From contig OY776214.1 of NCBI GenBank assembly GCA_963675425.1, forward strand, positions 2,316,978 through 2,380,977: 64,000 nt of DNA, given 5' to 3'. Both the position numbers and the translations under genes were made by a program. This document shows, one piece after another, positions 35,365 to 51,959 of this stretch. Below the pieces are notes generated by a model. That model ran no database searches. It saw nothing but the letters and a program-made list of their open reading frames with translations, and was not told where the DNA came from. This DNA is from an uncultured Sporobacter sp. (GTDB lineage: Bacteria; Bacillota; Clostridia; Oscillospirales; Oscillospiraceae). Numbering within the stretch: the first letter of the stretch is position 1; each line of letters starts with the position of its first letter.

Positions 35365-35405
35365 AAAAGAAAAAAGAGCCGAAAACAGTGTGTTTTCGGC
35401 TCTTT
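35365..35405 (-). terminator. Intrinsic terminator (minus strand) immediately after a tRNA-like 3' end
   Basis: aaagagccgaaaac-agtgt-gttttcggctcttt, with an A-run on + giving a U-tract on -. Confidence 0.7.
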
Positions 35406-35450
35406 GGCACCCCCGAGACGATTCGAACGTCCGACCCCTGCGCGTAGGAG
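35405..35450 (-). pseudogene. 3' fragment of a tRNA (Arg-CCT-like); putative att site
   Basis: Minus strand CTCCTAC GCGCA GGGGTC GGACG TTCGAAT CGTCT CGGGGGT G CCA: intact T arm and CCA end, but no matching 5' acceptor or D arm upstream. Confidence 0.65.
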
Positions 35451-35476
35451 TATGCGGTGTTGTACAGTCTAGCGTT

Positions 35477-35507
35477 TGGAGTGGTGTCTTGCAGTGCCCC
35501 AAACCCG
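35477..35507. repeat. 31/32-bp direct repeat, copy 1 (copy 2 at 46110-46141)
   Basis: tggagtggtgtcttgcagtgcc(g)ccaaacccg. Confidence 0.85.
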
Positions 35508-35696: not shown

Positions 35697-36068
35697 TTAC
35701 ACCTCTGCGATGAGTTCAATTTCGCAAAGGACATTCTTTGGAAGGGTCTTTACGGCAACGCAGGAACGGGCCGGTTTCCCGGTGAAGTACCCGGCGTAAA
35801 TTTCGTTAAATGCGGCAAAATCGCCCATGTCAGCCAGATAGCACGTGGTTTTAACAACCTTTGTGAAATCGGTTCCCGCTGCTTCAAGAACGGCCTTCAG
35901 GTTTTTGCAGACCTGTTCTGTCTGACTTTCAATGCTTGTGCCTGCGATTTCACCCGTCAGCGGGTTTACAGGTATCTGACCGGAGGTGTACAGCATATTG
36001 CCGGAAATAAAGGCTTGAGAATACGGCCCGATGGCCGCCGGCGCCTGATTTGAGTGAATGAGTTTCAT
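35697..36068 (-). CDS. ridA: RidA/YjgF enamine-imine deaminase
   Basis: APAAIGPYSQA, SGQIP, FNEIYA, PARSCV, LCEIELIA. Confidence 0.95.
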   Translation of the reverse strand: MKLIHSNQAPAAIGPYSQAFISGNMLYTSGQIPVNPLTGEIAGTSIESQTEQVCKNLKAVLEAAGTDFTKVVKTTCYLADMGDFAAFNEIYAGYFTGKPARSCVAVKTLPKNVLCEIELIAEV

Positions 36069-36144
36069 ATATAATCCTTACTTTCTTAATGTTGGTGTTT
36101 CCTGCCGTTGTACATCTTACCTGACCGCATAAGCCGAAGTCTCG

Positions 36145-37131
36145 TTATAAGACGTCCCGCAGCAGGCGCAGCACGTTTCCGCGTGCGAATTTTTCAACCT
36201 GACGCTCCGATAGCCCCTTTTTTAAGAGTGCCTGGAACAGCATTTCCATGTCCGTGGGCTGACCGATCTCAAATTGCCCTTGAATCCCATCGAAATCTGT
36301 GCCGAGGCCAACGCAGTCCTCACCGCCCTGGTTTACGAAATGAAGCACGTGACGGCAGATATCATCGATGCGGCTTTCACATTTTCCATCTCCGGTGAGG
36401 AATTCCGGCCCGAAATTTACTCCGGAGACACCCCCTGCGGCAGCAAGCTGCCGGATCATTGCATCCGTGAGATTCCGGGGATGATCACATAGCGCTCTGC
36501 AATTAGAATGGGTCGCGGCAAACGGCTTTGCCGAATGCTGTGCCACGTCCCAAAAGCCACCGTCCGACAAGTGTGATACGTCCACAAGAAGTCCCATGGA
36601 ATTCATTTCTGACAGAGCGTCCATACCGAAGCCGGTCAGTCCCAAACGCATGAGTTCGGGATCGGAGGAGTTAGGGTATCCAAAGCAATTGGGATGATTC
36701 CACGTTAAGGACATGGCGCGTACCCCTGTGTCGTAAAGCCGACGCAGCCGCCGTAGGTCGCTGTCCACAACGCGGGCGTCCTCAACGGTCAGAACGGCGG
36801 AGCAAAGACCCGCCGTCTCATTTCTGACGATGTCGGCTGCATTGTATGCCATCGCGATGACGTCCGGGTGCGCTGCAACGGTATCCAGCAATAAAGCAGC
36901 AGCTTTTTCAAACAGATCGTCATCCGCGGGGAACGGCCTGCTTTCTCCAGATGTGGAATGGCCGGACGGCCTTGGCGGAAAGAACACCGCGAAGAATTGA
37001 GCGCCTTGACCGGCTAAGGCCATCCGGGACACATCAAACATGTGTCCCGGATGGTCGTACAGTTGTCCGTCCATGATTCCCTTGAGAATAGAATCACAGT
37101 GCATATCAATATATCTGTGCGCCTTGTTCAT
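36145..37131 (-). CDS. Membrane/renal dipeptidase family (M19)
   Basis: DMHCDS, LTVED, SLTWN, DVSHL, THSN, VGLGTDFDG. Confidence 0.92.
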   Translation of the reverse strand: MNKAHRYIDMHCDSILKGIMDGQLYDHPGHMFDVSRMALAGQGAQFFAVFFPPRPSGHSTSGESRPFPADDDLFEKAAALLLDTVAAHPDVIAMAYNAADIVRNETAGLCSAVLTVEDARVVDSDLRRLRRLYDTGVRAMSLTWNHPNCFGYPNSSDPELMRLGLTGFGMDALSEMNSMGLLVDVSHLSDGGFWDVAQHSAKPFAATHSNCRALCDHPRNLTDAMIRQLAAAGGVSGVNFGPEFLTGDGKCESRIDDICRHVLHFVNQGGEDCVGLGTDFDGIQGQFEIGQPTDMEMLFQALLKKGLSERQVEKFARGNVLRLLRDVL

Positions 37132-37170
37132 GATCTCTCCTGCAAAGGAAATCGAGGTTTATGACTTAGA

Positions 37171-38856
37171 TTATTTTGCTGCGGTCCATTGGTATATAAC
37201 GACGCCTGCGGCATTTTTAACCCACGTGTAATCTTGATTCTCAAGGTTTGAGGCAGCCAGCTGGTACAGCGGCAGGATAGCCGCGTCGTTGAGGATTAAT
37301 TTTTCCATATCAGCTTGAGCCTGAATACGCTTATCCTGATCCAATGAATACTCACCGTTCTCTAATGCGAACAGCGCATCATAGTCAGGGTTGCTGTAAG
37401 CACCGTAGTTCATCTGAGCATCCGAGGTCCAAATGTCAACATAAGTTGAAGCTTCAGGATAATCCGCGTACCAACGCGTGAAACCAAGCTGGAAGTCCTG
37501 GGCGCCCATCAGTTCAAGACGGTTGTTGTAAGTGGTCGATACGAGGTTGATGGTGAGGCCGGGAAGGGTGTTTTGCCACTCGGACTGCAGATAGGCGCAC
37601 ACAGCCGGGAATATGGGGTCCTCATTGTACAGCAGATCGAGAGTAAGGCTGTCGACGCCGAGCTCGGTTTTTGCTTTTTCCCACAGTTCAGCGGCCTTTG
37701 CCTTGTCCATGGTGTTATAGGTCGGATTGCCGATTTTATCGCGGAAGAATACACCGTCAGCATCTGGAGCGAAGGTATCGGGAATGATATAGTCCGCGGC
37801 TTTCGATCCATTGTTGAGGATGTTGTCCACGATGGCTTGCTTATCAACAGCAAGCGAGAGGGCCATGCGCAGGTTGTCGTTGGCGATTGTCTCATCCGTC
37901 ATATTAAATGCCACCCAAAACATAGCGGCCATATCGTTGATAACAAGCGCAGGATCATCCTTGTACTTTGGCACATAGTCGCCGCTTACGTTAACAAAAT
38001 CCAATGCGCCGCTGTCCCAACTCATCAGCGTCTGTGATGGATCGGTGATGACACTAAAGTTGAGTTCCTCGGCGGTCACCTGGTCCGCATTGTAAAATTT
38101 ATCGTTCTTAACTAAAGTATAGCTTGTACCGCCGACTTCCCAATCGGAGAAGACATAAGGGCCGCACGAGAGATAATGGTCGATGTCAAGTCCAAACTGG
38201 TCGCCGCACTCATTGAAATAGGCTTCGTTAATGGGCATGAGGTAGCTTGAAAGTGCGGTGAGATAGAGAAAATAGGAGCGGGGGGCGTCCAGCTCCACGA
38301 CAAAGGTGGATTCATCCGGAGCGCTGATGCCAAGGGTGTCAACCGGTGCACCGGCATAGGCAACGGCAAAACCATTCTTTACGCCGCTGGCGCCTAACGC
38401 ATACGCAACAGGGGAACCGGTGGCGGGGTCAGTGACATGTTGCCAGGCAAACAAAAAGTCATAAGCTGTTACCTTATCGCCGTTGTTCCAATAAGCGTCA
38501 TCACGAATATGGAAAGTATAAGTCAATCCATCGTCGCTGAGGTCGTAGCTGTCGGCTAAGCCGTAGGTAACTGCACCGTCCTTATCAAAGGACATCAGGC
38601 CATAGTTGGTCAACGTGATCATTGTCATGGTCCACATCGAGCCATTCTGAGAGGGATCCAGAGTGCTTAAGGCTTCGCTAATTGATAGGTTCAGTTTTAC
38701 ACCTTCAGTGGCTGCTGCGGAATCAGTCGCCGCACTGCTGCCGGGAGTAGTACCGGGGGATACTTCGCCGTTGTCCGTGGCCTTACAGCCCGCAAGAACG
38801 GTAACCAACATTGCTATACCCATAAGTAAGGCTAGAATTCTTGTTCGGTTTTTCAT
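37171..38856 (-). CDS. oppA: Oligopeptide ABC substrate-binding lipoprotein
   Basis: Lipobox LAGC, STLDPS, DGLTYTFHIRDDAYWNNGDKVTAYDF, GPYVF, RWYADY. Confidence 0.92.
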   Translation of the reverse strand: MKNRTRILALLMGIAMLVTVLAGCKATDNGEVSPGTTPGSSAATDSAAATEGVKLNLSISEALSTLDPSQNGSMWTMTMITLTNYGLMSFDKDGAVTYGLADSYDLSDDGLTYTFHIRDDAYWNNGDKVTAYDFLFAWQHVTDPATGSPVAYALGASGVKNGFAVAYAGAPVDTLGISAPDESTFVVELDAPRSYFLYLTALSSYLMPINEAYFNECGDQFGLDIDHYLSCGPYVFSDWEVGGTSYTLVKNDKFYNADQVTAEELNFSVITDPSQTLMSWDSGALDFVNVSGDYVPKYKDDPALVINDMAAMFWVAFNMTDETIANDNLRMALSLAVDKQAIVDNILNNGSKAADYIIPDTFAPDADGVFFRDKIGNPTYNTMDKAKAAELWEKAKTELGVDSLTLDLLYNEDPIFPAVCAYLQSEWQNTLPGLTINLVSTTYNNRLELMGAQDFQLGFTRWYADYPEASTYVDIWTSDAQMNYGAYSNPDYDALFALENGEYSLDQDKRIQAQADMEKLILNDAAILPLYQLAASNLENQDYTWVKNAAGVVIYQWTAAK

Positions 38857-38905
38857 TTGTTTTCCTCCTTTTAATTTATATTGTCAGCTGATGCTGCAAT
38901 AAACT

Positions 38906-39850
38906 TTAAAGTGTCCATTTTTCAATTTCGCTTTCTGTTCCAAGAACCATGTGGGTTGGTGTAAGAAAATGCTCTTTGCCCACCAGGTAGTCAATACCCT
39001 CGGCGGCACGGTCATACGAAACCGATTTTTTATGGCGTTCAACCATCGGGTTTGGCTCAGGAATAGCTGATAAAAGCGATCTGGTATAGGGATGTATAGG
39101 ATTATTAAAAATCTCGTCCTTTGTTCCGGCTTCCACCAGGTGACCCAGATGAATAACACCTATGTCGTCAGATATATACTTGACCATAGACAGATCGTGA
39201 GCAATAAACAGATATGTCAGGTTCCGCTCAATTTGCAGGTCTTTCATCAAATTGACGACCTGTGCCTGAATGGACACGTCAAGAGCTGATATGCATTCGT
39301 CAGCTATGATTAGGTCCGGCTCCATGATAATGGCTCTTGCGATACCCACACGCTGCCGCTGCCCACCGGAAAACATGTGCGGATAGCGACACGCAAACTC
39401 GCGAGACAGGCCGACGCGCTCCAACATTGCACACACTTTTTCCTCGCGCTCAGCTGCGGACTTGCAAAGATGATTGGCGTCGAGCCCTTCGGCGACAATA
39501 TCAATAATCTTTTTTCGTGGGTTCAGGCTGGCCATGGGGTCCTGAAAAATCATTTGCATCTTCTGTGTAATAAAGCGGCGGGTTTCTTTATTGAGTTTGC
39601 CGGCGATTTCCACATTGTTAAAGGTGACGCTGCCGGCGGTCGGGTCGTAGAGCCGAATCAGCGCCCTGCCGATGGTAGATTTACCGCTCCCAGACTCTCC
39701 GACCAACCCGAAGGTGCTGCCGCGTCTTATTTTGAAGCTGACACCGTCAACCGCTTTGACCAACTGGTCTCTACTGGGGCAAAAATACTGTTTGAGGGCG
39801 TTGACGTCCAAAATGTTTTCTGTATCTTTATTGGTTTTCATCACCGGCAC
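38906..39850 (-). CDS. oppF: Oligopeptide ABC ATP-binding protein
   Basis: GESGSGKST, FSGGQRQR, HPYTRSLLSA. Confidence 0.95.
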   Translation of the reverse strand: MPVMKTNKDTENILDVNALKQYFCPSRDQLVKAVDGVSFKIRRGSTFGLVGESGSGKSTIGRALIRLYDPTAGSVTFNNVEIAGKLNKETRRFITQKMQMIFQDPMASLNPRKKIIDIVAEGLDANHLCKSAAEREEKVCAMLERVGLSREFACRYPHMFSGGQRQRVGIARAIIMEPDLIIADECISALDVSIQAQVVNLMKDLQIERNLTYLFIAHDLSMVKYISDDIGVIHLGHLVEAGTKDEIFNNPIHPYTRSLLSAIPEPNPMVERHKKSVSYDRAAEGIDYLVGKEHFLTPTHMVLGTESEIEKWTL

Positions 39851-40943
39851 CTCCTAGCTTGACGTTACTGAGTATTTTATCTATTCTCTGACGGAGCGTT
39901 TCAGGCATTTCAACCGTCGGTGCGTCAGGATGCCGGAGCCAGGAGGCTACTTCATGGGTATCGGAAATTTTAAAGACCGGCGCCTCCTCCTCAAAGTCAA
40001 TATTCAGTGCAAAGGTGTTTCGGACAGCAAATGCGTCACCCTTGACATGGTGCAAAAGATTGGGGGGCGAGCCCGGGATTGTATAAAGCCGGTCGTCTGC
40101 TGTGCTGAGATCCGGCATGGATAACAGTAAGCCCCATGTATAGGGATGAGCCGGCTCAAAATAAATCTCATATGCTGTCCCGCGTTCCACAATTTTTCCG
40201 GCATACATGACTGCGACATAATCGGCTACCTTGGCAACGACACCAAGATCATGGGTGATATAGATGACGGAGATATTCCTTTTTTTCTGCAGGGACTGAA
40301 TCAGCTCGAGAATTTTGGCTTGAATTGTCACGTCCAGCGAGGTGGTAGGCTCATCGCAGATAAGAATATCCGGATTGCAGCTGATGGCAATGGCAATAAC
40401 AACACGCTGCCTCATACCGCCTGACAGCTGATGCGGATAGCGCTTCATATTCAGTTCGGGGTTGGTGATGCCGACCTCCCTGAGCAGTTCAACACCCTTT
40501 TTCCAAGCCTCTTTTTTGCTTACATTCAAATGGAGCCTTATGCCTTCGGTAAGCTGATACCCAATGGTCAGCAGCGGATTTAACGCTGTCATGGGGTCCT
40601 GAAATACCATGGCAATGTGTTTGCCGTTGATCTCGCTAACCATTTGCTGTTTTGTGTATTTTAGTAAATCAACCGTTTTCTTCTCACCGTGGTCTATATA
40701 AGTGAAGATAATTTCACCGTCATTGATGATCTGGTTGCTGCTGCGGATGCCCATAACCCCTTTAACCGTTACGGACTTCCCACTGCCGGATTCTCCCACA
40801 ATAGCCAAAGTTTCACCCTTGCGCAGGGAAAAGTTAACGCCGCGAATCGCGTTGAGCGGTCCTCTGGAGGTTTCAAAGGATACTGACAGGTTTTTTACTT
40901 CAAGAATGGGGTCTCCCATCCGAATCTCGTTTTTCTGCTCCAT
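39828..40943 (-). CDS. oppD: Oligopeptide ABC ATP-binding protein
   Basis: GESGSGKS, LSGGMRQR, DEPTT, HPYTWGLL. Confidence 0.95.
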   Translation of the reverse strand: MEQKNEIRMGDPILEVKNLSVSFETSRGPLNAIRGVNFSLRKGETLAIVGESGSGKSVTVKGVMGIRSSNQIINDGEIIFTYIDHGEKKTVDLLKYTKQQMVSEINGKHIAMVFQDPMTALNPLLTIGYQLTEGIRLHLNVSKKEAWKKGVELLREVGITNPELNMKRYPHQLSGGMRQRVVIAIAISCNPDILICDEPTTSLDVTIQAKILELIQSLQKKRNISVIYITHDLGVVAKVADYVAVMYAGKIVERGTAYEIYFEPAHPYTWGLLLSMPDLSTADDRLYTIPGSPPNLLHHVKGDAFAVRNTFALNIDFEEEAPVFKISDTHEVASWLRHPDAPTVEMPETLRQRIDKILSNVKLGGAGDENQ

Positions 40944-40954
40944 CTGTATCCTCC

Positions 40955-41947
40955 TTAAACCCTTTTCATGGTTGGATCCAGCGCATCTCTGAGACCGTCG
41001 CCGATGATATTGAGCGAGAGCATTAAAAGCGCAAAGAAAACAGTCGGAATTGTCAGCTGATAGGAATACAGCAGCATGTTCTGAAAACCGTCATTAATAA
41101 GTGACCCCAGAGACGCTTGCGGATTTGGAATTCCCAAACCCACGAAGGAGAGGAACGCTTCCATGAAAATAGCTCCCGGTATGGACAGCATGGTCATGAC
41201 GATAACGGTGCTTAAAAGGTTTGGGAATATTTCCCTGAACATGATGCGCCATGTCCCAACACCAAGAGTTCTCGATGCCATAACATGCTCTGTTTCTTTA
41301 AGCCTTAGAGTGCTTGCGCGAACAAGTCTTGCTGTAACGGTCCATTGTGAGATGGCCATGGCAATGATAATGGACATGATGCCCGGATTAAGCACGATGA
41401 CCAACAATGACACGATGACAAGAGTCGGAATGCCGGCGATGACTTCGAGAATACGTTGCATCAAGATATCCAGTTTGCCGCCTTTGTAGCCGGAGACAAG
41501 GCCATACGTTACGCCAATGATCATATTAAGAAGCGCGCTGACAGCGCCAATAAGCAGAGATATCTGCGTGCCCATGCAAAAGCGGGTAAAGAGATCGCGG
41601 CCAAGCTTATCGGTTCCAAATAAAAAATATGAATCGTTAAAGCCCTTGGCCAGATAGATGTCTTCGCCGTTACGCATGCCGTTGAATATCCCGATGTTTT
41701 CCAAAAGAGGGATTCTCGGGGGAAGATTCTGCCGCGCCAATTCAATTCCGTCATAGGTGTAGCCACTCAAAAGCGGGCCGACCAAAGACACGATAATCAT
41801 GACAATCAAGAAGATAAAGCTGATAACAGCGCCCTTGTTTTTCGAGAATACCAGGAGCGTTTCTTTCCATTGGGGGCGGCTTTCATAAACTTCGTCCAGA
41901 ATGCTGTCGGGGCGTTTTGCAAAAGCAAACTTATTTAATATATCCAT
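40955..41947 (-). CDS. oppC: Oligopeptide ABC permease
   Basis: FGTDKLGRDLF, EAA-like ASRTLG, EAFLSFVGLG. Confidence 0.95.
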   Translation of the reverse strand: MDILNKFAFAKRPDSILDEVYESRPQWKETLLVFSKNKGAVISFIFLIVMIIVSLVGPLLSGYTYDGIELARQNLPPRIPLLENIGIFNGMRNGEDIYLAKGFNDSYFLFGTDKLGRDLFTRFCMGTQISLLIGAVSALLNMIIGVTYGLVSGYKGGKLDILMQRILEVIAGIPTLVIVSLLVIVLNPGIMSIIIAMAISQWTVTARLVRASTLRLKETEHVMASRTLGVGTWRIMFREIFPNLLSTVIVMTMLSIPGAIFMEAFLSFVGLGIPNPQASLGSLINDGFQNMLLYSYQLTIPTVFFALLMLSLNIIGDGLRDALDPTMKRV

Positions 41948-42883
41948 TTATTTACGCCCTCCCGCCAGTCGGATTCGCGGATCGATAACACCGTATAGAA
42001 GATCAACCACGAGCATTGTTCCAATAAAAAGCGCGCTAAAAATGAAGGCAAGGGTCAAGACGACATTATAGTCGTTTGTTGTAATCGCGGTGACAAACAG
42101 CTTACCGATTCCGGGGATTGAAAAAATGTTTTCAATAACGGTGCTTCCGGTTAATAACATGATTACCATTGGCGCCATTGCCGTGATTAATGGAACCAGC
42201 GTATTCTTCAGTGCGTGCACAACGAGAACGCGTTTCCTTGGAACGCCTTTCGTCTCAGCGAGGGTTATGTACTCGCTGCTTAGTACCTCCAGCATTTCGT
42301 TTCGAGTAAATCGGGCCGCAATGGCCATTGGGAAAATTGCCATAGACGCTGTTGCCAATATCGTCGAATATATCGGTTCTTTTGTAGAGTAGGTCAGCGG
42401 GAACCATCCAAGTTTAAACGCTAAGACATAAACCATTCCAAGAGCGAGCACCTGGGCTGGAATACTTGCGCCGATCATTGCGATAAAAGTTGTTAATGTG
42501 TCCCAAAAGCCGTTGTGGAAGATTGCCGCAACGATTCCCAGAATCACACCTAAGGTCAGCCCGATTGCGGCGGCCGAAAGCCCAATGCGAAGTGTCGTGG
42601 GAAATTTGTTTGCAATCAGGCCCGCTACTGGGTAGTTGGGCTGAATGGAATACGAGACGCCAAAGTCGCCCGACATCATATTCTTGATGTAAAGAAGTAT
42701 TTGCACGAATATAGGCTTATCCAACCCATATTTAGCCTCCACCGCCGCCCTTTGCACATCTGTCATTCGTTCGTTGTTAAACGGCGAGCCCGGCATCAGC
42801 TTGAGAAGGCAGAATAGAACTACAATTATAACGAGCAATGTAATAGCCGCAATAAAGAGTCTCTTCAAGGTGTACTTGACCAT
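41948..42883 (-). CDS. oppB: Oligopeptide ABC permease
   Basis: MPGSPF, GDFGVSY, AETKG..HALKN, IPGIG. Confidence 0.95.
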   Translation of the reverse strand: MVKYTLKRLFIAAITLLVIIVVLFCLLKLMPGSPFNNERMTDVQRAAVEAKYGLDKPIFVQILLYIKNMMSGDFGVSYSIQPNYPVAGLIANKFPTTLRIGLSAAAIGLTLGVILGIVAAIFHNGFWDTLTTFIAMIGASIPAQVLALGMVYVLAFKLGWFPLTYSTKEPIYSTILATASMAIFPMAIAARFTRNEMLEVLSSEYITLAETKGVPRKRVLVVHALKNTLVPLITAMAPMVIMLLTGSTVIENIFSIPGIGKLFVTAITTNDYNVVLTLAFIFSALFIGTMLVVDLLYGVIDPRIRLAGGRK

Positions 42884-42959
42884 AATTTCCCTCCGTTGCT
42901 TGAAAACCTTTGTGTTATTGGCACTTGCTTAGTACGCAACATTAATTTGTTGCACCGCT

Positions 42960-44147
42960 TCAGCGTTCTTTCAGAGCCAAACTTAGGCGGTGCAGGGCCT
43001 CCTGCAGGACGTGTGTCGGGCAAGCGATATTAATACGTTCAAAGCCCTTCCCGGATTCACCGAACATATATCCCTCATCCAAGAAAAGATAGGCCTTCTT
43101 TGTCATGAATTCTTTCATTTCTTCGTCGTTGTCAAATAGGTTCCGGCAGTCCCACCATTGGAGATAAGTGCCTTCGAGAGGATAGACTTTTATCTCCGGA
43201 ATATATTCCGCCATGTAGTCTTCTATAAACCTGGCATTGTGATGGATAAGCTCAATGACTTGATCCAGCCAATCCTCGCACTGTGTATAGGCAATTTCGC
43301 AGGCCTTGTATCCGATTGTATTCAGAGTAAACAGTGCGCTGCTGAACACTTGCTTTGAAAACGTTTCACGCAGTGCGTCGTTTGGAACAAAGATATTGGA
43401 GGTTTGAAGCCCGGCCAGCGAAAAAGCTTTTGACGGCGCTGTGAATATCAGACAGTTTTGCTCCGCTTCCTTTGAAATTGTGGCGTAGACGGTATGTTTA
43501 TACCCCGGCATGATCAGGTCGTTATGTATCTCATCAGAGAGCAAAAGCACATCGTTGGCAAGGCATATTTTCGAAAGCCGTGTGAGTTCCTCCACCGTCC
43601 ATACACGTCCTACAGGATTATGTGGACTGCAAAACAATAGCACCTTATTCGCCGGATCCCTTGCCGCTTCTTCAAATTTATCCCAGTCTATCTCATAGTG
43701 CATATCATGGTCAATAAGCGGGATATCCACGACGGTACGCTGAGACACGTCGATCGACATCTTAAATGGATAGTAAACAGGCGTGAAAATAACGACGCCG
43801 TCTCCAGGCTCTGTAAAGGCTTTTACAGCGTTAAAAAATGCACTGACGACACCGGGGCTTAAGACGTTCCAGCTCATATCCACATCCCAGTTGTGACGCC
43901 TTTTCATCCAGCCCCGAACAGCCTTGTTATAGCTTTCTGTGGGGGATGTGTAGCCAAAGGATACTGTATCAACATCAAGGAATTCCCGAAGCCCTTCCAT
44001 GATCTGAGGGGCGTTTTTAAACTCCATATCGGCAACGGAGAACGGGACGATGCCATCGGGGACGTCCGGATTTGCCTTTTTCATGCCACTCCACTTGCTG
44101 GATCCAATCTTGCTGCGGTCTATAATGTTTTCAAAATCATATATCAT
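42960..44147 (-). CDS. MalY/PatB-family PLP-dependent cystathionine beta-lyase (C-S lyase)
   Basis: VADMEF, CSPHNPVGRVW, SDEIH, APSKAFSLAG (PLP Lys), RINIAC; start at Met27 of the ORF-track protein. Confidence 0.93.
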   Translation of the reverse strand: MIYDFENIIDRSKIGSSKWSGMKKANPDVPDGIVPFSVADMEFKNAPQIMEGLREFLDVDTVSFGYTSPTESYNKAVRGWMKRRHNWDVDMSWNVLSPGVVSAFFNAVKAFTEPGDGVVIFTPVYYPFKMSIDVSQRTVVDIPLIDHDMHYEIDWDKFEEAARDPANKVLLFCSPHNPVGRVWTVEELTRLSKICLANDVLLLSDEIHNDLIMPGYKHTVYATISKEAEQNCLIFTAPSKAFSLAGLQTSNIFVPNDALRETFSKQVFSSALFTLNTIGYKACEIAYTQCEDWLDQVIELIHHNARFIEDYMAEYIPEIKVYPLEGTYLQWWDCRNLFDNDEEMKEFMTKKAYLFLDEGYMFGESGKGFERINIACPTHVLQEALHRLSLALKER

Positions 44148-44399
44148 TTTGTATAACCTTCCGGCGTCATATTTTGACGACTTGAAATTAACAAAAGGCG
44201 GCAATAGAATCATCTGTGATGACACCCTTGCCGCTCTTTCTTCTATATATTGAGGTTCATCAAATGTAATTCACTCATGTGCCTCATGTTAAATCTATAT
44301 TAAAAATACCACAGAGGATTTTAGAATGTAATCCGTAAAAGGTTGACTTTTAAGGTGCTGAATTTATACTAAGGATATAAATAGCTGGGAGGTCTGGCG

Positions 44400-45956
44400 A
44401 TGAGAATCAGTATGTGGATGTTATATGATGCGATATCTGCTTCAGTTTGCGATCATAACCTCGGCGATACGGCAGAGACGCGCCTGTTAGAAGGTGTGTT
44501 ACCCTTTCTGCCCGGAGAATCAGCGGCGGCGGACCACGTTTATCTGGCGCATATATCAGATTTAGGAAAAGAACGACTGAGCGACGGGGTATCTCTGGTC
44601 ATCTACGGAGACGGGGACGCGGTTCAGGCTGACATCGGTAACCAATACATTCGTCTTGAGCCGGAATTGAGCGCCGGTGCATCCTTCAAGCTTGTGCTCA
44701 ATGCCTTTGAGAAATATAACACCTGGTATGACAGGCTGCGGCAGGAGCTCATTGGAAAGCCTGATCTGATGCGCATTTGTGAGATAGGCAATGAGCTGCT
44801 TGATAATTATATCACGTTGTTTAATCCGGAGCACGTTCTCATTGCTTATGCTGATCTGCCTCCACAGATGATCGGTTCGGTATTGGAAAATAAAGGTGGA
44901 TCTTATTACTCGCTGACGGATACTGCTTATAAAGCAATGGTAAGCAGCCCTCAGCATACGGATGACATGAGGGCGGAACACGCGGCGTTTTTCTTTGATC
45001 CAATGCGGCAGCTCCGGATTTTGTACGCTAACGTCGGTCCGGGCAGCTTTGAGTGCCGGCTTTGTATCGGCGAGGAAAAGCGCTTGTTTAAACAGAGCGA
45101 CGCCCAGCTTTGTGAGGTACTTGCGGAAGTTCTCCTGACCGCCTTCCAAAATGATCATTTAAGCGGTGCGGGTACCAAAACGAATTTGCGGGATTTGCTC
45201 CAGAGTATTCTTAAGGAGTATTCTGTTGAAAACGTTACACTTGAAAGGAATCTGACAGGGATACAGTGGAGCCGGTACGACAGCTTTATCTGCATGGAGA
45301 TCGAAAAGATAAACCCGGATAACATGTTCGTTTCCAATGATCGGTATATCTGTTCGAGAATCGAAGAGCTTCTAAATGACGACGCCTGTGCTTTCTTCAT
45401 GGATGGGAAAATTATCTGTCTTGCCAGACTGCTGCCTGAGGAGCAGCCTGAACAGGTTGTTGAACGATTGGCCGGTTTCCTGAGGGACAGCATTTTTATC
45501 GTCGGCGCCAGTGAAAAATTCAAGGATATATTGGATATTGGAAACCACTATAAGCAAGCATGCATTGCTGCACAGCTGGGAAGAGTAAAGCGCCCCGACG
45601 ACTGGTACCACATGTTTGCAAACTATGCACTTTTGCACTTTTTCCAGTATGGGACATCCATACTGCCTGCCATTTATTATTGCGACCGAAATGTACAAAA
45701 GCTGATGGAGATTACCAATACAAAGGTTGATTACTGCGAAACGCTGCGGGTTTATCTGGAAAACGACCGTAACCTGCTTCATGCCTCGGCAGCGCTTCAT
45801 ATCCATCGAACCACCCTGTTTTATCGCTTAAACCGTATTGATGAGATGATTGACGGCAGCCTGGATGATCCGAACGTACGGCTGCGTATGTTGTTTTCCT
45901 TCGAATTGCTTGAGTTGGATAAAAATCCGCGTAGGTTTGTGGGGGTATTGTCCTGA
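44400..45956 (+). CDS. PucR/CdaR-family transcriptional regulator
   Basis: C-terminal TLRVYLENDRNLLHASAALHIHRTTLFYRLNRI HTH; divergent from patB. Confidence 0.9.
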   Translation: MRISMWMLYDAISASVCDHNLGDTAETRLLEGVLPFLPGESAAADHVYLAHISDLGKERLSDGVSLVIYGDGDAVQADIGNQYIRLEPELSAGASFKLVLNAFEKYNTWYDRLRQELIGKPDLMRICEIGNELLDNYITLFNPEHVLIAYADLPPQMIGSVLENKGGSYYSLTDTAYKAMVSSPQHTDDMRAEHAAFFFDPMRQLRILYANVGPGSFECRLCIGEEKRLFKQSDAQLCEVLAEVLLTAFQNDHLSGAGTKTNLRDLLQSILKEYSVENVTLERNLTGIQWSRYDSFICMEIEKINPDNMFVSNDRYICSRIEELLNDDACAFFMDGKIICLARLLPEEQPEQVVERLAGFLRDSIFIVGASEKFKDILDIGNHYKQACIAAQLGRVKRPDDWYHMFANYALLHFFQYGTSILPAIYYCDRNVQKLMEITNTKVDYCETLRVYLENDRNLLHASAALHIHRTTLFYRLNRIDEMIDGSLDDPNVRLRMLFSFELLELDKNPRRFVGVLS

Positions 45957-46109: not shown

Positions 46110-46141
46110 TGGAGTGGTGTCTTGCAGTGCCGCCAAACCCG
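46110..46141. repeat. Direct repeat copy 2
   Basis: tggagtggtgtcttgcagtgccgccaaacccg. Confidence 0.85.
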
Positions 46142-46690
46142 CACAGTACAAGGAATATTAGCGATTAGAATGTTATTTTGTGTTCGCCCGTGTTCGCTGG
46201 TTCTTGCTGGTTTCTCAGCTTTTAATTGGTAAAAAATCTACAAAAAACGAAAAACGACAACAGGACACCTCCCAGTGCCCTGTAAAAGTGTGTTTGTTAT
46301 CCACATTTCAGAGTGATTTTGCAGATTGCCGTCCGCATTTGTGCCTTAAAATGCCGGGAGTGCCTCAATTTGTTTTGAGACACTCCCTTTTTTATATAAC
46401 ATTGATTATGATAGTTGGCTGGTGGGTTACAAGGTGCGGATAAAACCATTCCGGCTATTGTCTGTCTGCTTGTTCTTGTGGCCATGCTTGGAGTAGCCTA
46501 GTCGCACTCAAGCTCCGCTCAGCGAACGCATATAACTTAAAACAATGGTGACGCCACTTGAAAAACGGTGCCAGCTTGATTATTTCTCTGGTGTTTTACG
46601 ATTGGGGATTCTTTCTCGTGTCCGTTTACTCTAGGGCAGTACACATTACAGATGCTATAACTTTTGGTGTGTTTCCATTACGTGGACTTT

Positions 46691-47749
46691 TCATAACGGC
46701 TTATTGTCCGGCAAAATAACGGGACTTGGGCAGCTTTCTCTATAAGTAAGAATGCATTCGTGTTTTTTTACGTTGCCCTTTCCAATGGCGCCTCTCATCG
46801 ATTGGTCTATCATCTGGATACAGTCATAACCCATATCGCTGGTGGGTGGGCAGATGCTAGTAATTGTCGGAGTTATAATCTCGCATGCAGTGTTGTTGCC
46901 ATAGGAAATTATGAATATATCGCCTGGTATCGAGCAACCATGATCTGTACAGCACTTAACGAAACCGGCCAGCATTGAATCTCCGGATACAAATACGCCG
47001 AAGGGCTCTTTGGCACTTTTTATGATCCTTTGCGCGGCGGCGTACCCGCCGTTGAAGTTATTCTCTTCATAAATAGTGTATATGTTTTCATACGGAAGCC
47101 CTGCTTTCACGCACGTATCATAAAATCCGGCATACCTAATACCTGGGTTTTTATGCATGATAAGAGGATTGATACAAGCCATTGAGACCGGAGAATTATT
47201 AAGCAGGCATTTTGCGGCTCTTTGACCAACAGAGTAATTGTCGATATATACCGCATTATAGTTGCCGGTGTCATTATTGAAAAGGACGATGGGCATCTCG
47301 GTATTTACCGACTTAAGAAAATCTTCATCTTCTTCGGAAAGACCTGTAACGACAATCCCCTGATAGATCCCAAGAGAAATTATTTGACTCATTGAAGACA
47401 GCGTGCCGGTCTCGTAAGGATGGATGGCGAACTCAAAGCCGGGTACACATTCGTTTTTATATCGCATTAATCCTTCAAAAAATTCTTTTAGCGGGCCATG
47501 GTCGAAGAAAGCTTCCCAGAATATACATACAATTGGATTCTCGACAGCATTACCCATGGCGAGCTTCTTTGCGTAGACATTAGTCCTGTATTTTAGTTCT
47601 TTAGCCACAGAGAGAACTTTCGCCTGTGTATTTTTTGATATTCTGTACTTGTTTCCATTATTGTTGAGGATGATGGAGACGGTGCTGGGCGATACGCCAG
47701 CTGCTACGGCTACATCTTTTATTGTGATGACTTTATTTTTTTTTGCCAT
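46691..47749 (-). CDS. LacI-family transcriptional regulator
   Basis: TIKDVAVAAGVSPSTVSIILN HTH, IDNYSVG, GYGNN-like ISYGNN, PTITSI. Confidence 0.95.
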   Translation of the reverse strand: MAKKNKVITIKDVAVAAGVSPSTVSIILNNNGNKYRISKNTQAKVLSVAKELKYRTNVYAKKLAMGNAVENPIVCIFWEAFFDHGPLKEFFEGLMRYKNECVPGFEFAIHPYETGTLSSMSQIISLGIYQGIVVTGLSEEDEDFLKSVNTEMPIVLFNNDTGNYNAVYIDNYSVGQRAAKCLLNNSPVSMACINPLIMHKNPGIRYAGFYDTCVKAGLPYENIYTIYEENNFNGGYAAAQRIIKSAKEPFGVFVSGDSMLAGFVKCCTDHGCSIPGDIFIISYGNNTACEIITPTITSICPPTSDMGYDCIQMIDQSMRGAIGKGNVKKHECILTYRESCPSPVILPDNKPL

Positions 47750-47862
47750 AACTCAGACATCCCCTTTGCAGAAATACTAAAACAATTATACATCAATTGC
47801 CATTACTTTCAAATAATATTACCGGAGTTGAATTTGTCCACCCGCGGTAGTGGCAATGGCGA

Positions 47863-47880
47863 TTGCTAAACTTTTAGCAA
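47863..47880. promoter_or_regulatory. LacI-type operator 1
   Basis: TTGCTAAA-CT-TTTAGCAA palindrome in the lacI/ABC divergent intergenic region. Confidence 0.65.
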
Positions 47881-48041
47881 TATTTTAGCATTATATCGGT
47901 CGTTTGTCAAAGTGAAATGCTTAAATATATTGAAATAATAAACAAAATATTATTTAAGATAATGTTATTATAAACGAAATTGTCAAATATTTAAAATTTA
48001 CCCTTGAAATATCCGCAGTTTTAATTTAACATTTGCTTAAT

Positions 48042-48059
48042 TGCAAAATCGTTTTAGCA
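48042..48059. promoter_or_regulatory. LacI-type operator 2
   Basis: TGCAAAATCGTTTTAGCA, with central CG, related to operator 1. Confidence 0.6.
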
Positions 48060-48111
48060 TCATTTGAAAGTGTGTAGGACCTCACTTTGAACGCCGAAGG
48101 GAAATGAGGAT

Positions 48112-49044
48112 ATGGGTAAATTCATTTTAAGGCGGTTGCTCTGGATAATCCCAGTCATAATCGCAGTATCAATCTTTGTCTTCACAATCATGTATTTCAC
48201 GCCGGGTGATCCAGCGATGATCATTCTTGGCCCAAATGCATCCGAGGAGATGTACGAAGCACAACGAGCTGAGTTGGGTATTGACGAGCCATACATAGTG
48301 CAGCTTGGGGTTTTTTTGAAAGATGTGTTTTTAAAGGGAGACCTGGGAAATTCCTTTAAAACGGATCAAGAAGTCTCCAAACAAGTAATAATGCGCCTTC
48401 CGTACACACTTAAGCTGGCTCTGGGCAGTGTGCTGTTGTCTGTATTGATAGGAATACCAATGGGTGTCTATGCAGCAACCCATCAGGCAAGCTGGAAGGA
48501 CAACCTCTCAATGTTTGGGGCACTCTTCTGCCTTTCTATGCCGGACTTTTGGTTTGCCCTACTGCTGGTAATGTTGTTTTCACTTAAGCTCGGATGGCTG
48601 CCGTCAATCGGAGCGGACGGCTTTATATACTATATATTGCCCTGTTTTGCACTGGCTCTCGGTGGTGCCGCTTCAATAGCCAGGCAAACACGATCAAGTA
48701 TGTTGGAGGTTATCCGCCAGGATTATATTGTAACGGCCAGATCAAAAGGACAGAAGGAACGCGTAGTTATTTATCGTCATGCCCTCAAAAATGCGCTCAT
48801 CCCTATTATAACAGTCGCCGGCATGCAGACCGCCAAAATGTTTGGAGGCGCGATCGTAGCGGAAGTAATTTTCTCGATACCTGGCGTTGGTTCCTATATG
48901 CTGACAGCTATCAATAACCGTGACTATCCGGCGGTACGTGGGGGCGTTCTCATCATTGCCGTATGCTTTTGCTTAATCATGTTGATTGTCGATATCATAT
49001 ATGCCGTCGTAGATCCCAGAATCCGCGAGCAATACGAATCATGA
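48112..49044 (+). CDS. Peptide/nickel-type ABC permease (DppB-like)
   Basis: TPGDPA, GDLGNSF, TARSKG..HALKNA, IPGVG. Confidence 0.95.
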   Translation: MGKFILRRLLWIIPVIIAVSIFVFTIMYFTPGDPAMIILGPNASEEMYEAQRAELGIDEPYIVQLGVFLKDVFLKGDLGNSFKTDQEVSKQVIMRLPYTLKLALGSVLLSVLIGIPMGVYAATHQASWKDNLSMFGALFCLSMPDFWFALLLVMLFSLKLGWLPSIGADGFIYYILPCFALALGGAASIARQTRSSMLEVIRQDYIVTARSKGQKERVVIYRHALKNALIPIITVAGMQTAKMFGGAIVAEVIFSIPGVGSYMLTAINNRDYPAVRGGVLIIAVCFCLIMLIVDIIYAVVDPRIREQYES

Positions 49045-49057
49045 AGAAGGTGCGCTA

Positions 49058-49948: not shown

Positions 49949-49959
49949 GGAGAAGAATC

Positions 49960-51935: not shown

Positions 51936-51959
51936 AAATAATATGAAAGGAAGAAAGAA

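What the first reader, a model, noticed from the sequence alone, without database searches (positions are those of the whole stretch)
35697..45956. Coherent pathway: peptide import, M19 dipeptidase, PatB C-S lyase and RidA under a PucR regulator
Seen: patB-oppBCDFA-dipeptidase-ridA on one strand, divergent from PucR. Known: beta-lyases release 2-aminoacrylate, which RidA detoxifies, and M19 dipeptidases cleave Cys-Gly-type and D-amino-acid dipeptides. Inference: catabolism of cysteine-, S-conjugate- or lanthionine-containing peptides (for example glutathione fragments) to release thiols or H2S. This is an apparently dedicated cassette rather than scattered housekeeping genes.
Basis: partly seen in the sequence, partly recalled or inferred. 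Interest (0 to 1): 0.55.

Follow-up and report, generated by a model that had tools for sequence, protein, structure and literature searches.

The report
Mobile cysteinyl-peptide desulfhydration operon
A Sporobacter-like anaerobe carries, on a discrete 10.6-kb insert, one operon joining a peptide importer, a dipeptidase, a cystalysin-type sulfur-cleaving enzyme and a detoxifying deaminase, most likely turning cysteine-bearing small peptides into pyruvate, ammonia and hydrogen sulfide or thiols; the enzymes are known kinds, but finding them in one regulated unit is new.

Summary
Eight genes lie head to tail on the minus strand: patB, oppB, oppC, oppD, oppF, oppA, an M19 dipeptidase and ridA. 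A PucR-type regulator lies divergent from them, at the stated coordinates.

The lyase is more specific than "PatB". Its best solved relative by far is cystalysin, the H2S-forming cysteine desulfhydrase of Treponema denticola (about 52% identity over the full length).

PatB, M19 and canonical RidA are each single-copy in this 4.6-Mb genome, and no gamma-glutamyltransferase was found.

The cassette recurs in four related Oscillospiraceae records, with PucR or MarR as regulator. M19-PatB adjacency appears in at least three separate PatB clades with different transporters. Many relatives add thiol-redox parts (AhpC/TSA fusion, C_GCAxxG, DUF169).

Caveats:
- The Opp-M19 front end also serves non-sulfur cassettes.
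- M19 is decayed in two close relatives.
- The ridA is the genome's only canonical copy, not an extra one.
- The substrate is untested.

The module is a discrete insert bracketed by a 31-nt duplication inside a tRNA-Arg-derived attachment remnant, and it holds no integrase.

Verdict: a coherent peptide-to-H2S/thiol catabolic operon, a new variant of a known kind. The scan has not reported this cassette on other DNA.

The parts
35697..36068 (-). ridA, 2-aminoacrylate/2-iminopropanoate deaminase; last gene of the operon
   Evidence: TIGR00004 170.7 bits, over the cut-off. Best PDB match is an enamine/imine deaminase, 8v8r. The PARS arginine is present. It is the only canonical RidA in the genome.
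36145..37131 (-). Cytosolic M19 (renal-dipeptidase family) dipeptidase
   Evidence: PF01244 271 bits, covering profile positions 5-318 of 319. H11, D13, E117, H187, H208, R219 and D279 are invariant in four cassette copies. No signal peptide. PDB relatives include Sco3058, Lmo2462, GliJ and human DPEP1. It is the only M19 in the genome.
37171..38856 (-). oppA, lipoprotein substrate-binding protein of the peptide ABC importer
   Evidence: SBP_bac_5 234 bits. Lipobox LAGC. Best PDB relatives are oligopeptide binders: 6npo, 5kzt, PrgZ, DppE and OppA.
38906..39850 (-). oppF, ATPase
   Evidence: ABC_tran plus oligo_HPY; OppF/DppF-like in NCBIfam.
39828..40943 (-). oppD, ATPase
   Evidence: ABC_tran plus oligo_HPY; OppD-like.
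40955..41947 (-). oppC, permease
   Evidence: OppC_N plus BPD_transp_1; Opp3C 405 bits.
41948..42883 (-). oppB, permease
   Evidence: BPD_transp_1_N plus BPD_transp_1; Opp3B 348 bits.
42960..44147 (-). patB, cystalysin-type PLP C-S (C-beta/S-gamma) lyase; first gene of the operon (395 aa from the ATG at 44147)
   Evidence: TIGR04350 395 bits against a cut-off of 340. Cystalysin 1c7n gives 459 bits with about 52% identity over the full length; the next PDB entry gives 296 bits. It is the only copy over the cut-off in the genome.
44185..44233 (-). Conserved leader hairpin (CGGCAA...TTGCCG) followed by a U-rich tract, about 40 nt upstream of the patB start
   Evidence: Fold z-score is -3.4. The hairpin is kept in the three PucR-type cassettes and partly kept in a MarR-type one. 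Two pairs show compensatory changes. No Rfam family matches.
44148..44399 (.). Divergent control region between patB and the regulator
   Evidence: Long conserved blocks are shared among three cassettes whose proteins are only 59-73% identical. Promoter-like sites occur on both strands.
44400..45956 (+). PucR-type transcriptional regulator with an uncharacterised N-terminal sensor region
   Evidence: HTH_30 62 bits and GGDEF_2. Residues 1-300 have no Pfam match. The ESM Atlas's nearest named cluster is the PucR N-domain, score 0.91. Orthologues at 59-66% identity sit divergent from patB in L018 and L104.
35477..35507 (+). Left copy of the 31-nt direct repeat that bounds the insert
   Evidence: Only two copies exist in the genome.
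46110..46141 (+). Right copy of the direct repeat
35373..35447 (-). Terminator plus a tRNA-Arg(CCT) 3'-half remnant (attachment-site relic) directly outside the left repeat
   Evidence: blastn gives 91% identity to the real tRNA-Arg at C1:c2490055-2490130 and a 100% copy at 2411444. Alignment. Terminator.

Best explanation
This is a substrate-inducible catabolic operon for small peptides that carry cysteine or an S-substituted or oxidised cysteine.

Proposed steps:
1. The lipoprotein OppA and OppBCDF import the peptide.
2. The cytosolic binuclear-metal M19 dipeptidase splits a Cys-Xaa dipeptide. Cys-Gly or its disulfide cystinyl-bis-glycine are the model substrates.
3. The cystalysin-type PLP lyase beta-eliminates the sulfur substituent. 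This gives H2S, or a thiol or persulfide, plus 2-aminoacrylate.
4. RidA hydrolyses 2-aminoacrylate/2-iminopropanoate to pyruvate and ammonium. This protects PLP enzymes and feeds fermentation.
5. The divergent PucR-type regulator probably activates the operon. A conserved leader hairpin with a U-tract may add attenuation control.

Shown here: the gene identities, the catalytic motifs, the single-copy status, the conserved synteny and the physical unity of the insert.

Inferred: the substrate, the reaction order, the induction and the physiological role.
For: Family assignments are over curated cut-offs.

The lyase is closest to cystalysin: 459 bits and about 52% identity. That compares with 296 bits or less for every other solved relative, including BsPatB (282), FnaPatB1 (242), ShPatB (202) and MalY (189).

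Cystalysin is the last enzyme of the GGT, cysteinylglycinase, cystalysin route from glutathione to H2S (PMC4808752).

M19 relatives in the PDB include DPEP1 and GliJ. DPEP1 cleaves cystinyl-bis-glycine and LTD4 (PMC11730190).

RidA is known to cluster with 2-aminoacrylate-forming PLP lyases (PMC4433059).

The cassette is conserved in L102, L104, L018/L022 and L103.

Variants of the same theme:
- patB and M19 overlap in L019.
- oppBCDFA-patB::AhpC-M19 occurs in Lachnospiraceae.
- MarR-M19-DUF5058-patB::AhpC occurs in five gut genome assemblies.
- An M20 peptidase replaces M19 in a Neobacillus PatB-Opp cluster.
- M19 with a PatB-like lyase is common in human-gut contigs.

M19 adjacency falls in at least three well-supported PatB clades.

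Thiol-redox partners recur: an AhpC/TSA domain in 27 of 80 loci, plus C_GCAxxG and DUF169.

The operon is tightly packed with one terminator. Its control region is conserved.
Against: No biochemical or expression data exist.

OppA belongs to the general oligopeptide-binding clade. Its 45-48% identical relatives serve cassettes with an aminotransferase and a 2-hydroxyacid dehydrogenase instead of a lyase.

M19 is deleted in the congener's cassette and frameshifted in L104, so it may be dispensable.

Characterised bacterial M19 enzymes prefer L-Xaa-D-Xaa dipeptides (my recollection of Cummings et al. 2010; the paper was not held).

The ridA is the only canonical copy here and in the congener that carries the cassette. 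Its presence could therefore reflect housekeeping need.

There is no GGT to make Cys-Gly from glutathione.
Confidence: 0.55

Rival explanations
1. This is a dedicated thiol-releasing pathway for Cys-Gly S-conjugates, that is, host biliary, dietary or plant glutathione-derived conjugates. M19 removes glycine and the lyase releases an organic thiol rather than H2S. It would be the operon-encoded equivalent of the skin-bacterial Cys-Gly-3M3SH route.
For: The known bacterial route uses a peptide transporter, a dipeptidase and a PatB lyase (PMC7385124; PMC11742315). Mammalian and fungal M19 enzymes (DPEP1, GliJ) act on Cys-Gly conjugates and are PDB relatives. Many M19 plus PatB-like pairs come from human-gut contigs.
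Against: The lyase is far closer to cystalysin than to the conjugate-specialised ShPatB (459 against 202 bits). By my recollection cystalysin favours small substrates. The recurrent thiol-redox partners fit disulfide or persulfide chemistry better than bulky thioethers. The closest cassettes are not shown to be host-associated.
Confidence: 0.15
2. This is a general peptide-scavenging operon. The PatB enzyme acts mainly as a cystathionine beta-lyase or aminotransferase in sulfur amino-acid interconversion (an anabolic role). RidA is simply the cell's housekeeping copy.
For: OppA is in the general oligopeptide clade. The Opp-M19 front end is reused with other back ends. The ridA is the sole canonical copy. 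PatB and MalY have cystathionine beta-lyase activity (PMC7385124).
Against: No S-box, T-box or other sulfur or methionine leader was found. PucR-family regulators typically control catabolic operons (my knowledge). Among 300 genomes of the family, only 2 hold an orthologue at 69% identity or more. Two of three congeners lack it. This is odd for a biosynthetic step. The repeated linkage of the lyase with M19 and with thiol-redox domains also argues against this reading.
Confidence: 0.12
3. The substrates are non-sulfur: L-Xaa-D-Xaa or Ser/beta-substituted-alanine dipeptides, for example cell-wall-derived ones. M19 acts as an L-D dipeptidase and the PLP enzyme acts as a racemase, transaminase or dehydratase.
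For: Characterised bacterial M19 enzymes prefer L-D dipeptides (my recollection). Their structures are among the best PDB hits (3id7, 3lu2/3neh). Cystalysin has reported racemase and transaminase side reactions (my recollection).
Against: All cystalysin motifs that I recall as catalytic or PLP-binding are conserved. Relatives carry AhpC/TSA, C_GCAxxG and DUF169 partners, which point to sulfur. RidA fits beta-elimination.
Confidence: 0.08
4. The pathway degrades lanthionine- or dehydroalanine-containing peptides (lanthipeptide or lanthionine-peptidoglycan fragments). The M19 dehydropeptidase activity releases 2-aminoacrylate directly and the lyase cleaves lanthionine.
For: By my recollection, M19 is the classical dehydropeptidase family and PatB-type lyases cleave lanthionine. 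RidA sits next to M19.
Against: RidA tracks PatB, not M19, in other genomes: 11 of 80 PatB loci against 1 of 80 M19 loci. No lanthipeptide or immunity genes lie nearby.
Confidence: 0.05

Closest known systems
Treponema denticola glutathione-to-H2S pathway (gamma-glutamyltransferase, cysteinylglycinase, cystalysin)
   Same: The terminal enzyme is the closest solved relative of this lyase (1c7n, about 52% identity over the full length). The logic is the same: dipeptide cleavage followed by cysteine desulfhydration to pyruvate, NH3 and H2S (PMC4808752).
   Different: This genome has no GGT. The dipeptidase here belongs to family M19 and so is not homologous to the T. denticola enzyme, which by my recollection is M17-type. 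Here the transporter, dipeptidase, lyase, RidA and regulator form one operon on a mobile-looking insert.
Skin-bacterial Cys-Gly-3M3SH thioalcohol pathway (DtpT, PepV or TpdA, PatB) in Staphylococcus hominis and Corynebacterium
   Same: Peptide uptake, then a dipeptidase, then a PatB-family C-S beta-lyase giving pyruvate, ammonia and a thiol (PMC7385124, PMC11742315).
   Different: [quoted passage not shown] The peptidases are M20 and the transporter is a POT family member. Here an ABC importer, an M19 enzyme and RidA are co-operonic. This lyase is only distantly like ShPatB (202 bits).
Eukaryotic M19 plus C-S lyase pairs: DPEP1 with cysteine-conjugate beta-lyase in the mercapturate pathway, and GliJ with GliI in gliotoxin biosynthesis
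   Same: An M19 dipeptidase removes glycine from a Cys-Gly adduct before a PLP C-S lyase acts. DPEP1 and GliJ are detectable PDB relatives of this M19 (DPEP1 substrates in PMC11730190).
   Different: The eukaryotic enzymes are membrane-anchored or biosynthetic. This one is a cytosolic bacterial catabolic enzyme, and sequence similarity is modest (80-105 bits).
RidA clustering with 2-aminoacrylate-forming PLP enzymes (Niehaus et al. 2015)
   Same: RidA lies next to a cystathionine-beta-lyase-type enzyme (PMC4433059). It is canonical, with the essential Arg.
   Different: Here the clustered ridA is also the only canonical RidA of the genome. The cluster also includes an importer and a dipeptidase.

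Membership tests
PatB family C-S lyase (NCBIfam TIGR04350) | Whole-protein score above the curated cut-off | tested here: met
   395.3 bits against a cut-off of 340. It is the only such gene in the genome.
PatB family C-S lyase (NCBIfam TIGR04350) | PLP-binding lysine and the fold-type I motifs that I recall as cystalysin's active-site residues (YY, SPHNP Asn, SDEIH Asp, carboxylate-binding Arg) | tested here: met
   In the alignment to cystalysin 1c7n, APSK, PVYYPF, SPHNPVGRVW, SDEIH and GFERIN are conserved. Which residues are catalytic is my recollection of Krupka et al. 2000; the paper was not held.
PatB family C-S lyase (NCBIfam TIGR04350) | Beta-elimination activity on cysteine, cystathionine or S-conjugates | not testable with these tools
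   This needs an enzyme assay.
Cystalysin (T. denticola L-cysteine desulfhydrase) orthologue group | Closest characterised relative over the full length, clearly ahead of other PatB/MalY subgroups | tested here: met
   459 bits over query residues 1-394 and chain residues 1-392, against 296 bits for the next entry. Spirochaete homologues sit in the same broad group of the tree (quick tree).
Peptidase family M19 (PF01244) | Near full-length match over the gathering score | tested here: met
   271 bits, covering profile positions 5-318 of 319.
Peptidase family M19 (PF01244) | Binuclear-metal ligands (HxD, bridging Glu, two His, Asp) kept, unlike non-hydrolytic members such as PvdM | tested here: met
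   H11, D13, E117, H187, H208 and D279 (plus R219) are invariant in four cassette copies. Mapping them to the ligand roles is from memory. PvdM as a non-hydrolytic member is from PMC9305348.
Peptidase family M19 (PF01244) | Membrane or GPI anchoring, as in renal dipeptidase | tested here: not met
   The protein has no signal peptide or hydrophobic terminus. It is predicted cytosolic, like other bacterial members.
RidA subfamily (TIGR00004) | Score over the cut-off, plus the arginine needed for imine hydrolysis | tested here: met
   170.7 bits against a cut-off of 106. The PARS motif aligns with an enamine/imine deaminase, 8v8r.
Opp-type peptide ABC importer | Five components: a family-5 binding protein, two permeases, and two ATPases with the oligo_HPY tail | tested here: met
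   Lipobox.
Opp-type peptide ABC importer | Ligand specificity for sulfur-containing peptides | not testable with these tools
   PDB relatives are general oligopeptide binders. Relatives at 45-48% identity sit in non-lyase cassettes.
PucR family regulator | C-terminal PucR HTH (PF13556) | tested here: met
   62 bits against a cut-off of 27.
PucR family regulator | N-terminal PucR sensor domain (PF07905) | tested here: inconclusive
   No Pfam match even at E=5. The ESM Atlas's nearest named cluster is PF07905 at 0.91, which is only a lead. No PDB relative was found.
Glutathione-to-H2S three-enzyme pathway | Gamma-glutamyltransferase present | tested here: not met
   PF01019 has no match in the 97.6%-complete single-contig genome.
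tRNA-linked integrative genomic island | Direct repeats at both ends and a tRNA 3' fragment at the junction | tested here: met
   The 31-nt repeat is unique to the two ends. A tRNA-Arg 3' half lies beside the left end. An uninterrupted copy of the element lies at C1:2389513-2389686.
tRNA-linked integrative genomic island | Own integrase or recombinase | tested here: not met
   All nine ORFs are accounted for. The nearest tyrosine integrases lie at C1:2410743 and 2488959, outside the insert. No serine recombinase is nearby.

The most novel reading that the evidence does not exclude
The cassette is the first operon-encoded bacterial counterpart of the DPEP1/beta-lyase arm of glutathione and mercapturate metabolism. 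It would be a horizontally mobile unit that lets gut and sediment Clostridia harvest Cys-Gly, cystinyl-bis-glycine or Cys-Gly S-conjugates and release H2S, persulfides or thiols. The recurrent uncharacterised partners in relatives (DUF169, C_GCAxxG_C_C, an AhpC/TSA domain fused to the lyase, DUF5058) would form an undescribed persulfide- or disulfide-handling and uptake layer around cystalysin-type lyases.
Probability: 0.2. Interest if true: 0.6.

Novelty: new variant of a known kind. Interest (0 to 1): 0.42.

Why it matters
Microbial H2S and thiol release from cysteine sources matters for gut and oral health, for the fate of xenobiotics and for odour. The known bacterial routes from Cys-Gly compounds use scattered, mostly housekeeping genes.

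A self-contained, regulated and apparently transferable operon gives three things:
- A clean genetic handle, as one promoter region, one regulator and one binding protein to screen.
- A marker for metagenomic surveys of peptide-derived sulfide production.
- A set of uncharacterised partner families (DUF169, C_GCAxxG, AhpC/TSA fusions, DUF5058) whose linkage to cystalysin-type lyases suggests a testable role in persulfide or disulfide handling.

Tried and rejected
1. The tRNA-like sequence and terminator left of ridA suggested an ssrA (tmRNA) gene split by the insert. ARAGORN found nothing on the joined flanks. The genome's tmRNA lies elsewhere, at C1:1397886. The fragment is a tRNA-Arg 3' half.
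2. I looked for a riboswitch, T-box or S-box in the leader. There was no Rfam hit at E<=0.1 across 30-50 kb.
3. A metagenome scan with OppA alone found no relative. I replaced it with an M19 alignment scan and a protein search.
4. Base composition gives no sign of foreign origin. The cassette GC is 0.483 against a genome value of 0.509 +/- 0.037, the 22nd percentile.
5. The repeat core does not flank relatives' cassettes in any fetched locus.
6. The regulator has no PDB relative, and its N-terminal 300 residues have no Pfam domain.
7. The phyletic link between M19 and the cassette among close genomes is not clean. G272 keeps a 60%-identical M19 unlinked to the cassette, and G002's M19 is only 34% identical.
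8. The papers by Krupka et al. 2000 and Cummings et al. 2010 were not held. Residue roles and the L-D preference of bacterial M19 enzymes therefore rest on memory.

Full report
**What is there**

The minus strand between 35697 and 44225 carries eight tightly packed ORFs, and the plus strand carries one divergent ORF at 44400-45956. Pfam and NCBIfam identify them as follows:
- a PatB-family C-S lyase (TIGR04350, 395 bits against a cut-off of 340);
- Opp3-like permeases OppB and OppC;
- ATPases OppD and OppF with the oligo_HPY tail;
- a family-5 binding protein;
- an M19 dipeptidase (PF01244, 271 bits, near full length);
- a canonical RidA (TIGR00004, 171 bits against a cut-off of 106);
- a regulator with the PucR C-terminal HTH and a GGDEF_2-like middle domain.

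The binding protein has a lipoprotein signal ending LAGC. The dipeptidase has no signal peptide and keeps the HxD, Glu, His, His and Asp set. RidA keeps the PARS arginine.

Gaps between genes run from a 23-nt overlap to 76 nt. No convincing internal terminator is predicted, and a 15-bp-stem terminator follows the unit.

One correction applies. Homologues are about 395 aa long, and the ribosome-binding site and ATG are conserved, so patB starts at 44147, not at the GTG at 44225.

**What the lyase is**

Against all PDB sequences the lyase matches cystalysin of Treponema denticola (1c7n) at 459 bits over its whole length. I counted about 203 identities in 394 aligned positions in the alignment. 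Other solved relatives score far lower:
- a Clostridioides difficile protein, 296 bits;
- Bacillus subtilis PatB, 282 bits;
- Fusobacterium FnaPatB1, 242 bits;
- Staphylococcus hominis PatB, 202 bits;
- E. coli MalY, 189 bits.

The PLP lysine motif (APSK) and the YY, SPHNP, SDEIH and GFERIN motifs are conserved. That these are cystalysin's catalytic and PLP-binding residues is my recollection of the cystalysin structure paper, which was not held.

Cystalysin is the L-cysteine desulfhydrase that ends the gamma-glutamyltransferase, cysteinylglycinase, cystalysin route from glutathione to H2S, pyruvate and ammonia (PMC4808752; PMC11203769).

**Standing in its own genome**

The genome is a 4.6-Mb single contig, 97.6% complete. 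It belongs to the same genus as a genome assembly titled "uncultured Sporobacter sp.".
- The cassette holds the only PatB over the cut-off.
- It holds the only M19 peptidase.
- It holds the only canonical RidA.
- No gamma-glutamyltransferase was found. Intact glutathione is therefore an unlikely substrate unless other organisms trim it first.

Two congeners that lack the cassette each have one RidA elsewhere. The congener that has the cassette again has its only canonical RidA inside it. The ridA is thus not an extra, dedicated copy. It probably doubles as the housekeeping enzyme.

**Is the cassette a conserved unit?**

Yes. Contigs encoding the closest lyases (73-79% identity) show the same set:
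- L102: MarR / patB-oppBCDFA-DUF169-M19-ridA-C_GCAxxG-DUF169.
- L104: PucR / patB-oppBCDFA-M19-ridA-C_GCAxxG-DUF169.
- L018/L022, the congener: PucR / patB-oppBCDFA-ridA-C_GCAxxG.
- L103: a rearranged MarR version.

In L019 patB and M19 overlap by 4 nt, with no transporter. A C26 gamma-glutamyl-hydrolase-type peptidase lies opposite.

Among 300 sampled genomes of the family, only two carry an orthologue at 69% identity or more. Two of three congeners have only 38%-identical paralogues. The distribution is therefore patchy.

**Is the dipeptidase-lyase link more than local?**

I anchored on the lyase in 80 species-level genome loci (47-73% identity) and searched them with the cassette proteins and the partner proteins. 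Counts out of 80:
- an AhpC/TSA thiol-redox domain, 27 (fused to the lyase's C-terminus wherever I checked the ORF by Pfam: L044, L065 and L072);
- MarR, 12;
- ridA, 11;
- M19, 6;
- DUF5058 with a second small protein, 6;
- DUF169, 4, including ridA-patB-DUF169 in spirochaete genome assemblies.

Five gut genome assemblies share MarR-M19-DUF5058-unknown-patB::AhpC. Lachnospiraceae contigs share oppBCDFA-patB::AhpC-M19. A Neobacillus genome has PatB-OppA-OppBC-OppDF followed by an M20 peptidase, a non-homologous replacement of the dipeptidase.

I then anchored on M19 in 80 metagenome loci. A PatB-like gene is adjacent in 28. Most of these belong to one human-gut lineage whose neighbour scores 309 bits on TIGR04350, and at least six other lineages show the same adjacency.

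On a quick maximum-likelihood tree of 90 lyases, M19 adjacency falls in at least three well-supported separate clades. The tree needs 4 changes, against 9.2 on average in shuffles. Long-branch rows in that tree are unreliable.

The lyase-dipeptidase pairing is thus recurrent across different transporters and regulators.

**What qualifies the reading**

- OppA falls in the general oligopeptide-binding clade of solved structures.
- Its protein relatives form a tight group down to about 45% identity and then drop to about 40%.
- The three contexts I could retrieve at 45-48% identity lack a lyase. Instead they show MatE, D-2-hydroxyacid dehydrogenase, a HisC-like aminotransferase, a cytidylate-kinase-like protein and oppBCDFA, with M19 adjacent in two of the three (L215 and L217, not L216). 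L163 shows a similar arrangement without MatE and with M19. L044 combines this aminotransferase front with patB::AhpC-M19.

The Opp-M19 "front end" is therefore a reusable module for peptide import and cleavage, and the "back end" decides which amino acid is degraded. In this window the back end is a cysteine desulfhydrase with RidA.

- M19 is reduced to a 29-residue remnant in the congener's cassette and is split over three frames in L104. General peptidases may be able to substitute for it, as PepV does in S. hominis (PMC11742315).
- The regulator is PucR in three close cassettes and MarR in two.

**Regulation**

The divergent 252-nt control region has long blocks conserved among the three PucR-type cassettes. 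It also has promoter-like sites on both strands.

About 40 nt upstream of the patB start lies a 35-nt hairpin (44199-44233, minus strand) followed by a U-rich tract. The hairpin is kept in the three PucR-type cassettes and partly kept in a MarR-type one, and two pairs show compensatory changes. The leader folds better than all 200 shuffles, with z = -3.4. No Rfam family matches. This could be an attenuator, but I did not establish that.

The regulator's first 300 residues have no Pfam or PDB match. The nearest named ESM-Atlas cluster is the PucR N-domain at 0.91, which is only a lead.

**A discrete insert**

A 31-nt direct repeat (35477-35507 and 46110-46141) occurs only at these two places in the genome. 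It brackets exactly the nine genes.

Directly outside the left copy lie a tRNA-Arg(CCT) 3' half and a terminator. About 37 kb away, at C1:2389513-2389686, the genome holds an uninterrupted copy of the same roughly 175-nt element. In that copy the left and right flanks of the cassette are contiguous.

Further copies of the tRNA half lie at 2411444 and at the intact tRNA-Arg (c2490055-2490130). Each of those has a tyrosine integrase beside it, at 2410743 and 2488959.

The window from about 35.4 kb onward therefore belongs to a roughly 138-kb array of islands downstream of tRNA-Arg, and the cassette has entered the terminal attachment remnant. It carries no recombinase, and its GC content is unremarkable. 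How it moved is therefore unknown; the possibilities include mobilisation in trans, or the "empty" copy arising by deletion.

This agrees with, and extends, the scan's sister note e1-5259868. It also shows that the regulator and the eight structural genes travel as one piece.

**Most likely mechanism**

The steps below are inferred unless marked.
1. The OppA lipoprotein captures a small cysteine-bearing peptide, and OppBCDF imports it.
2. M19 hydrolyses a Cys-Xaa dipeptide. Cys-Gly or its disulfide are the best models, because DPEP1 cleaves cystinyl-bis-glycine and LTD4 (PMC11730190) and GliJ is a detectable relative.
3. The cystalysin-type lyase eliminates H2S, or a persulfide from cystine, or a thiol from an S-conjugate.
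4. RidA converts 2-aminoacrylate to pyruvate and ammonium. RidA-lyase clustering is documented in PMC4433059.

The frequent thiol-redox partners in relatives favour oxidised (disulfide) substrates or persulfide products. These partners are absent from this window's version, which ends at ridA.

I put 0.55 on this scheme. Within it, the exact substrate class is open.

**Comparison with what is known, and novelty**

The chemistry matches the T. denticola pathway, the skin-bacterial Cys-Gly-3M3SH pathway, and the eukaryotic DPEP1/beta-lyase and GliJ/GliI pairs. In the bacterial precedents, however, the genes are scattered. The transporter and peptidase there are housekeeping proteins of other families (POT transporter; M17 or M20 peptidases). 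One paper states that PatB genes are not associated with operons.

I found no paper describing an Opp-M19-cystalysin-RidA operon. The scan's own notes hold no equivalent on other DNA.

I therefore rate this a new variant of a known kind, of moderate interest. It is a good candidate marker and experimental handle for peptide-derived sulfide or thiol production in anaerobes. It also links several domains of unknown function to cystalysin-type lyases.

Noticed in passing
window 35371-35507 and 46110-46178; genome C1:2389513-2389686, 2411444-2411479, c2490055-2490130: The cassette interrupts one copy of a roughly 175-nt element (terminator, tRNA-Arg 3' half, 31-nt core, tail). This copy ends a roughly 138-kb array of islands downstream of tRNA-Arg(CCT). 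Tyrosine integrases sit beside the intact tRNA (2488959) and beside one fragment (2410743). The rest of the window to the right of 35.4 kb lies inside this array.
   Followed up: partly
window 44185-44233 (-): A conserved 35-nt hairpin plus a U-rich tract lies in the patB leader, about 40 nt before the start codon. It is a possible attenuator. No Rfam family matches it.
   Followed up: partly
L044:9965-11755, L065:4843-6603, L072:10001-11788 and others: In 27 of 80 species-level loci the cystalysin-type lyase has an AhpC/TSA (peroxiredoxin-like) domain nearby. It is fused to the lyase's C-terminus in the three loci I checked by Pfam. This suggests coupled disulfide or persulfide chemistry.
   Followed up: partly
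L102:17204-20961, L104:18652-19974, L018:17850-18359, L048, L055, L060, L067: DUF169 and C_GCAxxG_C_C proteins repeatedly follow the lyase or RidA in related cassettes. This includes ridA-patB-DUF169 in spirochaete genome assemblies. They are missing from this window's version, which stops at ridA. The own genome has two C_GCAxxG genes elsewhere.
   Followed up: no
L215, L216, L217, L163 (and the upstream part of L044): A sister cassette has MatE, D-2-hydroxyacid dehydrogenase, a HisC-like aminotransferase, a cytidylate-kinase-like protein, oppBCDFA and usually M19. It looks like a peptide-to-2-hydroxyacid route that uses the same import and cleavage front end.
   Followed up: partly
L058, L059, L065, L072, L088: In gut Oscillospiraceae and Lachnospiraceae, DUF5058 and a 187-236-aa protein with no Pfam match sit between M19 and patB::AhpC, downstream of a MarR gene where the contig extends that far. 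They may be an uncharacterised transporter replacing Opp.
   Followed up: no
L018:17014-17100; L104:17132-18113: M19 is reduced to a 29-residue remnant in the congener's cassette. In another close cassette it is split over three reading frames. The congener keeps a 60%-identical M19 about 1 Mb away (L218).
   Followed up: yes
L019:12171-12773 (-): A C26 (gamma-glutamyl hydrolase / GATase-like) peptidase lies opposite an overlapping patB-M19 pair. It may be a gamma-glutamyl-removing step for glutathione-type substrates. This was seen in one lineage only, plus a 39% hit in L098.
   Followed up: no
window 46691-53564: Immediately right of the insert lie a LacI-type regulator (46691-47749, -) and a second complete Opp/Dpp-type ABC importer (48112-53564, +). 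They lead into the flavin-reductase operon noted earlier by the scan.
   Followed up: no
whole genome G000 against congeners G116, G205 and G272: This genome is 4.6 Mb, while three congeners are 2.0-2.8 Mb. It holds 17 tyrosine-integrase and 7 serine-recombinase matches, which suggests heavy island load.
   Followed up: no
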